Shown here one piece after another: positions 35,037 to 36,120 of a DNA stretch of 41,141 nucleotides. Position 1 is the first letter of the stretch. Every line of letters begins with the position of its first letter. Source of the DNA: a bacterium. GTDB taxonomy: Bacteria > Patescibacteriota > Minisyncoccia > UBA6257 > GWB1-50-10. Both the position numbers and the translations under genes were made by a program. The stretch is taken from the NCBI GenBank assembly GCA_021801565.1, contig JAJYXV010000009.1, forward strand, positions 1 through 41,141, read 5' to 3'. The notes below the pieces were generated by a model. The model ran no database searches. It saw only the letters and a list, made by a program, of their open reading frames with translations, and was not told the DNA's origin.

Positions 35037-35069
35037 CTTTTTTTCTCCTCTGATACAATAACGAGATGA

Positions 35070-35366
35070 ATCCCGTTAATGATAAATCTTTTGAATAGAT
35101 AAATATGTATTATACTTATATACTACAAAGCATAAAAAATGGAAGGAGGTATACAGGATATACAAAAGATTTACGAAAACGTTTTATTGAGCACAATCGG
35201 AGAAGTGGAAAGAAATATACAAGCAAAGGCGCGCCGTATGAATTAATCTATTATGAAGCTTGTATCAATGAATATGATGCAAAAACTAGGGAACAATATC
35301 TCAAGTCGGGTCCTGGAAAACGATATCTTGCATATCGCCTAAAACGTTTTCTATCATTAACGGGAT
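35070..35366. mobile_element. GIY-YIG-carrying inverted-repeat element (family 2)
   Basis: Perfect 15-bp TIR atcccgttaatgata / tatcattaacgggat; ATGAAT duplicated at 35066-35071 and 35365-35370. Confidence 0.85.
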
Positions 35367-35368
35367 GA
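35105..35368 (+). CDS. Stand-alone GIY-YIG nuclease (UPF0213/SLX1-like)
   Basis: YYTYILQS....RYTGYT.DL..R..EHN and YYEA.....A..RE..LK motifs. Confidence 0.92.
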   Translation: MYYTYILQSIKNGRRYTGYTKDLRKRFIEHNRRSGKKYTSKGAPYELIYYEACINEYDAKTREQYLKSGPGKRYLAYRLKRFLSLTG

Positions 35369-36120
35369 ATACACAAATGAAAATTATTATTTCACTTCTT
35401 ATATTTTTTCTCGTTATCGTTGGAATTGTATTTTTTATCTCTCAAAAAAAGGAATCAACTATTTCTGAAAGGAATATACAGGCAATAAGCGAAATTCCTA
35501 CGACTTCAACGCCAATCGTGGGAGGAGATAAGGACGTGCATGGATGCATCGGATCCGCCGGATATACATGGTGCGAAGCAAAACAAAAATGCTTAAGGGT
35601 CTGGGAAGAAAAATGCGAAGCAACGAGCACTCAGATAAAAGTTGATGAGACGGTAAATTGGAAGACTTATAAAAATAACCAATATGGATTTGAATTGAAA
35701 TATCCAGAAACGGCCGCAGTGGTAGAAGGTAAGGAAACATATATATCATTTCCTTTGAGCGATGCAAAACTTTATATGTATGTTGGAAAAAATACATCGG
35801 TTCCGCTTATAGGGACATTTGGGGGACGTTTTGAATATAACCCGAACCAACGGCCGGATTTTATGTTGCTTTCAGAAATAGGGGGTACGTTTACTAAGGA
35901 TTATTTTGCAGTAAGTATGGACGGAAAAAATTGGGATCGGGTAATCAATGCATATAAAGAAAAAGATGGAAATTATTTTATACTTTCGATGTATAACATA
36001 AAACATAATGCGACAAGCGGAAACACTGCAAATATATTTTTGAATGAAATGCGCGATCCACAACATAGTGATGTGAATGTGTTTAATAAAATACTTTCAA
36101 CAATAAAATTTTATAAATAA
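35365..36120 (+). CDS. Membrane-anchored secreted protein with VGGDKDVHGCIGSAGYTWC mini-domain and PsbP-like C-terminus
   Basis: N-terminal TM, four-Cys motif and WKTYKN..YGFELKYP...FNKILSTIKF. Confidence 0.8.
   Translation: MNTQMKIIISLLIFFLVIVGIVFFISQKKESTISERNIQAISEIPTTSTPIVGGDKDVHGCIGSAGYTWCEAKQKCLRVWEEKCEATSTQIKVDETVNWKTYKNNQYGFELKYPETAAVVEGKETYISFPLSDAKLYMYVGKNTSVPLIGTFGGRFEYNPNQRPDFMLLSEIGGTFTKDYFAVSMDGKNWDRVINAYKEKDGNYFILSMYNIKHNATSGNTANIFLNEMRDPQHSDVNVFNKILSTIKFYK

What the first reader, a model, noticed from the sequence alone, without database searches (positions are those of the whole stretch)
35059..35373. Minimal mobile element: 15-bp TIRs around a lone GIY-YIG nuclease, inserted on a host start codon and translationally coupled to it
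Seen: a 297-bp unit with perfect TIRs (atcccgttaatgata/tatcattaacgggat) encodes only an 87-aa GIY-YIG nuclease. ATGAAT is duplicated on both sides, within a 12/13 direct repeat taacgRgatgaat. The original leaderless start (TACAAT-6 nt-ATG 35066) now reads a 10-codon uORF ending TAG 35096-35098, in the same frame as the nuclease ATG at 35105. The nuclease's last residues (LSLTG) are encoded by the right TIR, and its TGA stop is created by the duplicated target, overlapping the host ATG (ATGA). Established: GIY-YIG domains mobilise group I introns and Penelope retroelements but are not standard IS transposases. Inference: this is the autonomous member of a transposase-free TIR family that keeps the downstream gene expressed by translational coupling.
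Basis: partly seen in the sequence, partly recalled or inferred. Interest (0 to 1): 0.9.

Follow-up and report, generated by a model that had tools for sequence, protein, structure and literature searches.

The report
Tiny GIY-YIG nuclease mobile element
A 295-base mobile DNA element that carries only one small nuclease gene has inserted exactly on a gene's start codon; it is present in some natural populations and absent in others, and it may be the smallest self-contained transposon yet seen.

Summary
Window 35071-35365 is a precise insertion bounded by perfect inverted repeats. It encodes one intact 87-aa GIY-YIG nuclease.

- **Empty sites.** A same-genus genome (G003) has the uninterrupted site. 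Contigs from two metagenome studies, with flanks matching at 0-1 differences, skip exactly 299 bp.
- **Anatomy.** Family comparison refines it to 14-bp TIRs plus a 4-bp target duplication, TGAA, taken from the host's A|TGAA start. The right copy supplies the nuclease's TGA stop. With the element's last A it rebuilds the host ATG. In relatives the left copy supplies the nuclease's only start codon.
- **Family.** The genome holds about 19 repeat pairs of the same TIR class, most of them 45-150 bp and without cargo. Twelve abut a start codon.
- **Recurrent hits.** Different subfamilies occupy the same start codons in sister genomes. One relative has two copies differing by 1 nt at unrelated loci.
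- **Spread.** Homologues of 60-68% identity with co-varying TIRs occur in several phyla.

The nuclease is Slx1/UPF0213-like. The nearest described system is the Ssn nuclease with its flanking hairpin repeats (Chenal 2025). That the nuclease itself drives mobility is inferred. So is translational coupling, because the right TIR also offers a -10 box.

The parts
35054..35059 (+). Host -10-like box TACAAT, 6 nt before the original start codon (leaderless-type promoter)
   Evidence: G003's empty site has TAGAAT at the same place. Genome-wide, -10-like hexamers peak 6-8 nt before ATG: 46, 31 and 31 against about 7 background.
35066..35098 (+). uORF MNPVNDKSFE plus TAG. It starts at the host's original ATG, reads through the left TIR and is in frame with the nuclease.
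   Evidence: In relatives the same frame is open and gives the N-terminal extension MNPVRD...
35067..35070 (.). Left copy of the 4-bp target-site duplication TGAA
   Evidence: Empty sites read A-TGAA-T. Sites A, B and D follow the same rule.
35071..35365 (+). The mobile element proper (295 bp)
   Evidence: A 299-bp skip (element plus one duplication copy) in contigs of X8 and X9. Absent from the G003 orthologous site.
35071..35084 (+). Left terminal inverted repeat TCCCGTTAATGATA
   Evidence: I3. The same core occurs at other elements.
35105..35368 (+). 87-aa GIY-YIG nuclease gene. The stop TGA 35366-35368 comes from the right duplication copy.
   Evidence: Pfam PF01541 E 9.5e-16. All 15 invariant family residues are kept. 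Slx1/UPF0213-like fold.
35352..35365 (+). Right terminal inverted repeat TATCATTAACGGGA. It encodes the tail LSLTG. Its first six bases, TATCAT, are a -10-like box 7 nt before the host ATG.
35366..35369 (.). Right copy of the target-site duplication TGAA
35365..36120 (+). Host gene (251 aa, N-terminal membrane anchor or signal). Its ATG is rebuilt from the element's last A plus TG of the duplication.
   Evidence: Orthologues in G003 (76% identity), G002 and G001.
11533..11647 (.). Short element of the same TIR class without cargo (115 bp), abutting the ATG of a 401-aa gene
   Evidence: Present in G001. No element upstream of the orthologue in G003, nor in the readable part of G002, where part is masked. 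G026 has a full nuclease element at the same gene.

Best explanation
Window 35071-35365 is one copy of a family of very small transposable elements. Their only gene is an Slx1/UPF0213-like, single-domain GIY-YIG nuclease.

**Shown**
- The element is a precise insertion with 14-bp perfect TIRs and a 4-bp duplication of TGAA at the host's A|TGAA start.
- It is polymorphic (present or absent) in natural populations.
- The same TIR class bounds about 19 repeat pairs in this genome. Most are 45-150 bp, and some retain the nuclease's coding tail.
- Different subfamilies have hit the same start codons independently in sister genomes.
- Full copies differing by 1 nt sit at unrelated loci in one relative.
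- The two TIRs co-vary across genomes although both are coding. The left reads NPVRD and the right reads LSLTG.

**Read directly from the sequences**
- The element has essentially no start or stop codon of its own.
- The left duplication copy (A+TG) gives the start codon used in relatives.
- The right copy gives the TGA stop.
- The element's terminal A plus TG restores the host's ATG.

**Inferred**
- The nuclease recognises the stem that the two TIRs form, probably in single-stranded DNA as SsnA does with its hairpin. It then nicks at the stem base and at A|TGAA targets.
- Host replication and repair finish the insertion.
- The element is transcribed from the host's leaderless promoter.
- The host gene stays expressed through stop/start overlap, through the -10-like TATCAT in the right TIR, or through both.
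For: **Precise empty site.**
- G003 reads ..gatagaataacgagATGAATACGC.., with the same upstream terminator and gene.
- The joint 35064->35364 skips 299 bp. It occurs in one 6824-nt contig of X8 (flanks with 0 and 1 differences) and one 546-nt contig of X9, from two studies. X7 holds the filled form.

**The repeats are not chance.**
- 20 pairs against 0 in the control.
- The junction 10-mer TAACGGGATG occurs 221 times against 40 for the control across 61 genomes.
- 13 of 15 such junctions in G000 open at least 100 codons, against 13.5% of all ATGs.
- 12 of 19 CCCGTTA-class elements abut a start codon that opens at least 100 codons.

**Sister genomes.**
- Site B is empty in G001, G002 and G003.
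- Site D is empty in G001 and G003, and holds a different subfamily in G002.
- Site A holds three different states, including a tandem pair.

**Other points.**
- G021 has two copies differing by 1 nt over about 289 nt, with unrelated flanks.
- Of the 39 closest of 79 fetched loci, 21 have a TIR of at least 12/13, and they come from several phyla.
- Over all 72 scored loci it is 21 against 1 in the control.
- The TIRs co-vary with the protein tail: CCCGATAGTGTCA with LTLSG, and CCCGTACGAAA with LFRTG.
- The host ATG is the only start codon in L049, L052, L053 and L090.
- All 15 invariant residues are kept.
- The fold is nearest to 1zg2 and Slx1.
- The TIR stem closes the element in predicted DNA and RNA folds, with z from -3.4 to -5.9.
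- No DDE_Tnp_1, rve, TnpB or IS110 match in the genome.
Against: - No biochemical or genetic evidence links the nuclease to movement.
- GIY-YIG enzymes hydrolyse DNA and are not known to perform strand transfer, so joining would need host functions.
- The genome has one IS200-type Y1 transposase that acts on ssDNA hairpins. Y1 domains occur in 6 of 11 relatives with full elements.
- The presence/absence polymorphism could equally reflect precise deletion by slippage between the 7-bp repeats across a hairpin.
- Duplications are not uniform. Some loci show 3, 6 or no recognisable repeat.
- The window copy has a TAG between the host ATG and the nuclease ATG, so its expression is uncertain.
- The Ssn-related motif of Chenal 2025 has 0 matches in this genome. 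The analogy to SsnA is therefore by architecture and size only.
- More distant homologues, in Bacteroidota and Alphaproteobacteria, lack detectable TIRs.
Confidence: 0.72

Rival explanations
1. The TIR elements are moved in trans by another enzyme, such as the IS200/IS605-type Y1 (HUH) transposase of the genome, in the way REP/REPIN sequences are thought to depend on RAYTs. The GIY-YIG gene is then a passenger or has another role.
For: One Y1_Tnp gene lies at C8:146490-146852 (E 3.8e-31). Its flanking hairpins begin CCCCGCAC / CCCCGGAC, which recalls the CCCG termini, especially the CCCGCACCTTTTC subfamily. The short elements look like REPIN-type long hairpins. Y1 domains occur in 23 of 61 relatives.
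Against: - The Y1 gene's own ends are not the CCCGTTA TIR.
- No Y1 match was found in G004, G007, G013, G026 or G038. All five carry full elements and are 91-100% complete in 3-20 contigs.
- From my own knowledge, IS200/IS605 transposition gives neither TIRs nor target duplications. Here both are present.
- The TIRs co-vary with the nuclease's own N- and C-terminal coding sequence. The nuclease gene is under purifying selection across phyla, with 15 invariant residues.
Confidence: 0.12
2. The element spreads by homing rather than transposition. The nuclease cuts empty A|TGAA-type targets, and the element is copied in by recombinational repair from a filled allele, for example after natural transformation. 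New loci are reached only rarely, through microhomology.
For: - GIY-YIG enzymes are classical homing endonucleases (Pfam and NCBIfam hits).
- Filled and empty alleles coexist with flanks matching at 0-1 differences.
- The left flank TAACGAG resembles the element's right end TAACGGG. A similar resemblance is seen at L080 and L050.
- The same start codons are hit repeatedly.
Against: - From the 2006 review text: homing enzymes recognise the uninterrupted target, not their own ends. They do not need TIRs.
- Here the TIRs are perfect and co-vary.
- Many unrelated loci are occupied within one genome.
- Short copies without cargo have spread.
- Insertions carry target duplications.
- The protein lacks the separate DNA-binding domain of I-TevI-type enzymes, and its fold is nearest to Slx1.
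Confidence: 0.12
3. The elements are chiefly host-useful cassettes, not selfish DNA. They would be portable leaderless promoter and 5' leader modules. The nuclease would act as an Ssn-like single-strand DNase that modulates transformation at its repeats, as proposed for Neisseria.
For: - The right TIR of this subfamily reads TATCAT or TATTAT, then 7 nt, then ATG. This matches the genome's leaderless pattern in 4 of 4 copies of the subfamily.
- The elements sit at gene starts in the gene's orientation.
- The Ssn/NTS precedent (PMC11893778, sections read).
Against: - The empty sites already have their own -10 box and ATG, so nothing is gained.
- The other subfamilies (..TCTCTAACGGG) carry no -10-like hexamer at that place (read).
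- Recent duplicates, tandem insertions and spread across phyla are the behaviour of selfish elements.
Confidence: 0.05

Closest known systems
Ssn nucleases with flanking NTS/SRM hairpin repeats (Chenal et al., Nat Commun 2025, PMC11893778; Results, Discussion and one Methods section read)
   Same: Both have a single-domain GIY-YIG protein of about 90 aa. Inverted-repeat DNA lies on both sides of the gene, and many further copies of the repeat are spread through the genome. The nuclease and its repeat vary together. The authors themselves note that the layout is like an insertion sequence, and they compare it to IS200/IS605 and REP/RAYT.
   Different: - There, each flank carries its own 20-50-nt hairpin. 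Here one repeat pair encloses the whole ORF, and both arms are coding.
- Their SRM search motif has 0 matches in this genome.
- Their text does not mention target duplications, tRNA or Patescibacteria.
- I found no report of empty sites in the sections I read.
- Whether this protein belongs to CDD family cd10448 could not be tested.
Prokaryotic stand-alone Slx1-like / UPF0213 GIY-YIG proteins (PDB 1zg2, 1ywl; Dunin-Horkawicz et al. 2006, PMC1564403, passages read)
   Same: These are the best sequence and fold matches: 1zg2 at E 1.3e-6 and Foldseek rank 1, followed by Slx1 chains at TMq about 0.6. Both are the minimal domain, with no invariant C-terminal Asn.
   Different: The 2006 analysis took that family to be mostly vertically inherited and involved in repair. 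No TIRs or mobility were described there.
IS200/IS605 insertion sequences and REP/REPIN-RAYT systems
   Same: They are very small elements that depend on hairpins in single-stranded DNA. Short hairpin derivatives multiply in the genome. The analogy was drawn by Chenal 2025.
   Different: The catalytic protein is different: an HUH tyrosine enzyme there, a GIY-YIG hydrolase here. From my own knowledge, those elements have no TIRs and make no target duplication. This one has both.
MITEs such as the Neisseria Correia elements (recalled, no call)
   Same: They are 100-150-bp TIR elements with short target duplications. They sit next to gene starts and are co-transcribed with the gene.
   Different: From my own knowledge, Correia elements have no known autonomous partner. 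Here full-length copies with a gene share the TIR and the subterminal sequence.
Free-standing and intron-borne GIY-YIG homing endonucleases (I-TevI, Seg proteins)
   Same: The catalytic superfamily is the same. They are selfish genes that insert next to host genes without destroying them.
   Different: Homing genes have no TIRs and no short derivatives. They carry a separate DNA-binding domain and occupy one cognate site. I-TevI is only rank 24 in the fold search.

Membership tests
GIY-YIG nuclease superfamily (Pfam PF01541) | Profile match above the curated cut-off | tested here: met
   58.3 bits against a cut-off of 22.6, E 9.5e-16.
GIY-YIG nuclease superfamily (Pfam PF01541) | Catalytic Tyr (GIY), Tyr/Gly (YIG), Arg, His and Glu are present | tested here: met
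   Y3, Y5, Y16, G18, R26, H30, E51, R62 and E63 are invariant in 19 sequences, including the window copy. Assigning these residues to catalytic roles is from my own knowledge.
Prokaryotic Slx1-like / UPF0213 minimal GIY-YIG | Closest sequence and fold to 1zg2, 1ywl and Slx1; single domain; no conserved C-terminal Asn | tested here: met
   Family features as given in PMC1564403.
Ssn family (CDD cd10448, Chenal 2025) | Assignment to CDD model cd10448 | not testable with these tools
   No CDD search is on hand, and no SsnA sequence was available from any tool.
Ssn family (CDD cd10448, Chenal 2025) | Gene flanked by SRM hairpins matching the published degenerate motif | tested here: not met
   0 matches in the whole genome (shuffles give 0-2) and 0 in eight homologue loci.
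Ssn family (CDD cd10448, Chenal 2025) | Site-specific cleavage of single-stranded DNA next to its repeat | not testable with these tools
   This needs a biochemical assay.
Transposable element with TIRs (insertion-sequence-like) | Terminal inverted repeats, target-site duplication, and an empty site at an orthologous or allelic position | tested here: met
Transposable element with TIRs (insertion-sequence-like) | Several copies at unrelated loci, including near-identical ones and non-autonomous derivatives | tested here: met
   G021 has two copies differing by 1 nt. Short copies keep the KRFLLLTG tail.
Transposable element with TIRs (insertion-sequence-like) | The encoded protein catalyses the movement | not testable with these tools
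   Inference only. The supporting points are TIR-protein co-variation and the lack of other transposase families apart from one IS200-type gene.
Homing endonuclease gene | A single cognate target site, no terminal repeats, spread only to homologous alleles | tested here: not met
   Many different sites, perfect TIRs and short derivatives.

The most novel reading that the evidence does not exclude
This is a new class of autonomous prokaryotic transposon. Its transposase would be a ~87-aa GIY-YIG nuclease of the Slx1/Ssn type. At about 280-295 bp it would be the smallest self-sufficient mobile element known.

It would consist of little more than one ORF whose two ends are the TIRs. It would target the first codons (A|TGAA) of leaderless genes. 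It would borrow the host's promoter, start codon and stop codon, and hand a start codon back to the host.

The tRNA-adjacent small GIY-YIG genes in the same genome would be sister lineages using the same strategy at tRNA gene starts.
Probability: 0.5. Interest if true: 0.95.

Novelty: new variant of a known kind. Interest (0 to 1): 0.86.

Why it matters
- **A possible new transposase type.** From my own knowledge, recognised transposase chemistries in prokaryotes are DDE, DEDD, HUH, serine, tyrosine and Cas1. A hydrolytic GIY-YIG nuclease as the only protein of a TIR element with target duplications is not among them.
- **Size.** At 295 bp the element would be far smaller than the smallest autonomous insertion sequences, which I recall as roughly 600-700 bp.
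- **A function for a large family.** Small stand-alone GIY-YIG genes have had little assigned function. This query alone finds 4864 clusters at E ≤ 0.001.
- **Link to Ssn.** It ties the recent Ssn single-strand nucleases to real, observable mobility.
- **Living in a compact genome.** In a 0.74-Mb genome the element inserts on start codons yet gives the start codon back, so insertion need not remove the host gene's start codon.
- **Testable now.** Filled and empty alleles coexist in sampled populations.
- **Possible tools.** The nuclease/TIR pairs could become sequence- or structure-specific DNA tools.

Tried and rejected
**Searches and tests that led nowhere or were set aside**
- **Ssn-related motif.** A regex built from PMC11893778 found 0 matches in G000 and in eight loci. 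I dropped strict membership of the SRM system.
- **Automatic search for the longest flanking direct repeat.** It was too noisy, so I read the junctions by eye instead.
- **Sigma-70 consensus scan.** It found 3 promoter-like sites against 3.4 expected, which is uninformative. It does show a terminator-like hairpin at 34999-35036.
- **TIR pairs 451-8000 bp apart.** 20 pairs against 9 in the control, all at only 12/14 and none of the CCCGTTA type. So no larger cargo or transposase is bounded by this TIR in G000.
- **G002 upstream regions at the orthologous sites.** The upstream region at the window's orthologue and at site C is partly masked (runs of N). It was not informative for those two sites.
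- **NCBIfam.** Only a sub-threshold hit to group I intron endonuclease: 21.2 bits against a cut-off of 56.
- **RNA evidence.** No RNA holder was listed among the runs. Transcription starts and coupling could not be examined.
- **Chance or assembly artefact.** Rejected, because independent assemblies hold both forms.

**Literature.** Nine full-text searches found no paper describing bacterial TIR elements that encode only a GIY-YIG nuclease. The nearest is PMC11893778. The supplementary data of PMC11893778 (lists of homologues and repeats) might include relatives of this family, and I could not see them.

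Full report
**1. The observation**

- The 15-nt perfect inverted repeat lies at 35070-35084 / 35352-35366. The 14/16 direct repeat lies at 35056-35071 / 35355-35370, with a spacing of 299.
- ORF 35105-35368 encodes 87 aa and matches Pfam GIY-YIG at E 9.5e-16.
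- ATG 35066 opens ten codons that end at TAG 35096-35098, in the frame of ATG 35105. The nuclease's TGA overlaps the ATG of ORF 35365-36120. TACAAT lies 6 nt before ATG 35066.
- The window is contig C5 of a 741,804-bp genome in 16 contigs, 98.7% complete.

**2. It is a precise insertion, and it is polymorphic**

The downstream protein has orthologues in three genomes of the same genus. In G003 (76% identity) the upstream gene and its terminator are conserved. The site reads ..gatagaataacgag-ATGAATACGC.. with nothing in between.

I laid contigs of four public runs that were not flagged as possible sources on window 34400-36200.
- A joint 35064->35364 "skips 299". It appears in one 6824-nt contig of X8 (flanks with 0 and 1 differences) and one 546-nt contig of X9 (0 differences). 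The two runs come from different studies.
- X7 holds the filled form. X8 also holds low-depth pieces of the element.

So filled and empty alleles exist in flanks that match at 0-1 differences. Contigs cannot tell insertion from precise deletion.

**3. Refined anatomy**

I compared four short relatives of the element in G000 with G001-G003.
- Site B (C8:13544) is empty in all three genomes.
- Site D (C3:42284) is empty in G003 and G001. In G002 it holds an element of a different subfamily.
- Site A (C8:25433) holds the same subfamily in G001, another subfamily in G003, and two tandem elements in G002.
- Site C (window 11533-11647) is filled in G001. No element lies upstream of the orthologue in G003, nor in the readable part of G002, which is partly masked. 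In another genus (G026) the same gene carries a full nuclease element.

All readable junctions fit one rule: TIR = T-CCCG... / ...CGGG-A, with a 4-bp duplication TGRR that begins right after the A of the start codon.

For the window this gives:
- element 35071-35365 (295 bp);
- duplication TGAA at 35067-35070 and 35366-35369.

The longer ATGAAT/GATGAAT repeat is the duplication plus bases that happen to match. The host's TAACGAG is also present in the empty G003 site. Elsewhere the duplications are less regular, at 3 or 6 bp or unrecognisable.

**4. The element is almost nothing but one ORF**

The right TIR encodes the conserved tail LSLTG. The stop TGA is the first three bases of the right duplication copy. 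The element's last A plus TG rebuilds the host ATG.

In relatives the host-derived left ATG is in frame with the nuclease through the left TIR, giving MNPVRD...
- In L049, L052, L053 and L090 it is the only start codon.
- Gene calls from unrelated metagenomes show the same extension. P0003 and P0028 begin MNPVRD.. P0017 begins MNPDSV.. and ends LTLSG.

The window's uORF is therefore best read as this extension, now interrupted by a TAG.

**5. A family with non-autonomous members**

- In G000, TIR pairs starting CCCG with at least 12/14 complementarity, 40-450 bp apart, number 20. The reversed genome gives 0.
- 19 pairs belong to the CCCGTTA class. In 12 of them an ORF of at least 100 codons starts at offset 0 from one end.
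- 13 of 15 TAACGGG|ATG junctions open at least 100 codons, against 13.5% of all ATGs.
- The short copies C8:13544 and C3:42284 retain the coding tail KRFLLLTG-stop.
- A second TIR family, CCCGCACCTTTTC, encloses a broken GIY-YIG gene at C9:1447-1741 and has short copies.
- Across 61 related genomes the junction 10-mer occurs 221 times, against 40 for the control. It is concentrated in about a dozen genomes.

**6. Recent movement and wide spread of full copies**

- G021 has two copies that differ by 1 nt from ATCCCG.. to ..CGGGATGA (about 289 nt). Their flanks are unrelated, and each abuts a start codon.
- Full-length homologues of 46-67% identity in eleven related genomes were examined. Ten show a TIR architecture: eight on a start codon with an ATGA overlap, one (G015) on the 5' end of a tRNA gene, and one (G008) with a different TIR (CCCCGTAGTAGAA). 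G023 lies in a tRNA duplication without a recognised TIR.
- In the GTDB-wide scan, homologues of 60-68% identity occur in MAGs labelled Giovannonibacteria, Daviesbacteria, Saccharibacteria, Omnitrophota, Stahlbacteria, WS2, WOR-3, Phycisphaerales and Planctomycetota.
- Of 79 loci fetched, 7 were skipped for odd ORF length. 21 of the 72 scored have a TIR of at least 12/13 (17 perfect), against 1 of 72 in a non-complement control.
- The TIR sequences differ between lineages, but the two arms stay complementary. The protein's two ends change with them.

**7. The protein**

- Fifteen residues are invariant in 19 sequences, including the Tyr, Arg, His and Glu of the GIY-YIG core. The window copy keeps all of them.
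- The best solved relatives are UPF0213 proteins 1zg2 (E 1.3e-6) and 1ywl.
- An AlphaFold model (pLDDT 82) matches 1zg2 first, then Slx1 structure-specific nucleases at TMq about 0.6. I-TevI ranks 24th.
- The family is large: 4864 clusters at E ≤ 0.001 and 398 at ≤ 1e-10.

**8. Expression context**

Leaderless organisation is common in this genome.
- -10-like hexamers peak 6-8 nt before ATG, at 46, 31 and 31 against about 7 background. This applies to 133 of 687 crude ORFs.
- 199 of 687 ORFs start with ATGAA.

The element thus sits where transcription and translation both begin. However, the right TIR of this subfamily (TATCAT or TATTAT, then 7 nt, then ATG) itself meets the -10 criterion in all four copies. 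The host gene may therefore have a new promoter instead. No RNA data were available. The paired TIRs close the element in predicted DNA and RNA folds, with z from -3.4 to -5.9.

**9. Other enzymes**

- No match to DDE_Tnp_1, rve, the TnpB zinc ribbon or IS110 in G000.
- One tyrosine recombinase.
- One IS200-type Y1 transposase at C8:146490-146852. It has hairpin ends CCCCGCAC../CCCCGGAC...
- Y1 domains were not found in 5 of the 11 relatives that carry full elements.
- No TIR pair of this class encloses larger cargo.

**10. Comparison with what is known**

The nearest description is the Ssn family (PMC11893778; I read the first part of Results, two further sections and the Discussion).
- It covers ~94-aa single-domain GIY-YIG nucleases that cut single-stranded DNA next to a hairpin repeat.
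- Their genes are flanked by such repeats, which the authors call identical in layout to insertion sequences.
- Their text does not mention target duplications, tRNA or Patescibacteria. I found no report of empty sites in the sections I read.
- Their repeat motif is absent here.

The 2006 survey of the superfamily treats the prokaryotic Slx1-like group as repair proteins inherited mostly vertically. Nine literature searches found no report of this element type. Supplements were closed.

**11. Verdict**

The insertion, its family, its target rule and its recent mobility are shown. Three things remain inferences: that the nuclease is the mobilising enzyme, that it acts on the TIR stem in single-stranded DNA, and how the host gene stays expressed. 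I file it as a new variant of the recently described kind, small GIY-YIG nucleases with flanking repeats. There is a substantial chance that it represents a new class of transposon.

Noticed in passing
G000 contigs: C15:3936-4157, C12:3672-3905, C8:170230-170430, C8:71940-72134, C8:55228-55437, C8:118967-119173, C8:156397-156615, C12:156173-156385 (loci L006, L009, L012, L008, L010, L011, L013, L001): Eight other small GIY-YIG genes lie upstream of a tRNA gene in the same orientation, seven of them within about 50 nt and L001 about 150 nt away. In at least four, the 5' part of that tRNA is repeated upstream of the nuclease gene. This looks like a sister strategy of insertion at tRNA gene starts.
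   Followed up: partly
G000 C9:1447-1741, C9:3153-3287, C12:160862-160990, C16:11574-11706; window 15663-15761: A second TIR family, CCCGCACCTTTTC. One 295-bp copy encloses a GIY-YIG gene broken by stop codons. Several copies of about 130 bp carry no cargo.
   Followed up: partly
23 places in G000, e.g. window 24290 and 31548; C3:42316; C12:3636; C8:170192: An 18-20-bp G+C-rich hairpin, CCTGCCTrC..GCAGGCAGG, occurs 23 times against 0-1 in shuffles. It is found inside short TIR elements and inside the repeated tRNA 5' parts, as if it were inserted on its own.
   Followed up: no
window 34969-35059: A 91-bp segment is absent from the G003 site. It contains a 17-bp perfect hairpin followed by a T run (34999-35036, terminator-like). 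It is bounded by a 22-nt imperfect direct repeat that includes the -10 region. It may be another small insertion or a promoter duplication.
   Followed up: no
G000 C8:146390-146990: A single IS200-type element with a 141-aa Y1 transposase and subterminal hairpins.
   Followed up: partly
window 38043-38064: TATAAT-AACGGG-ATGAATACA precedes a 194-codon ORF. It has the same junction word and the same first codons as the host gene at 35365, but no recognisable TIR. It may be a solo end or a native promoter.
   Followed up: no
L048 (G022:C5), L087, L089, and G002 at site A (L156): Tandem or nested arrangements occur. An element's left end follows directly on the right end plus duplication of another element. 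This suggests that a right junction is itself a target.
   Followed up: partly
L050 (G015:C37): A full TIR element whose right end overlaps the first bases of tRNA-Pro. The tRNA's first ten bases, CGGGCTGTAG, are repeated at the left flank. This links the start-codon and tRNA target types.
   Followed up: partly
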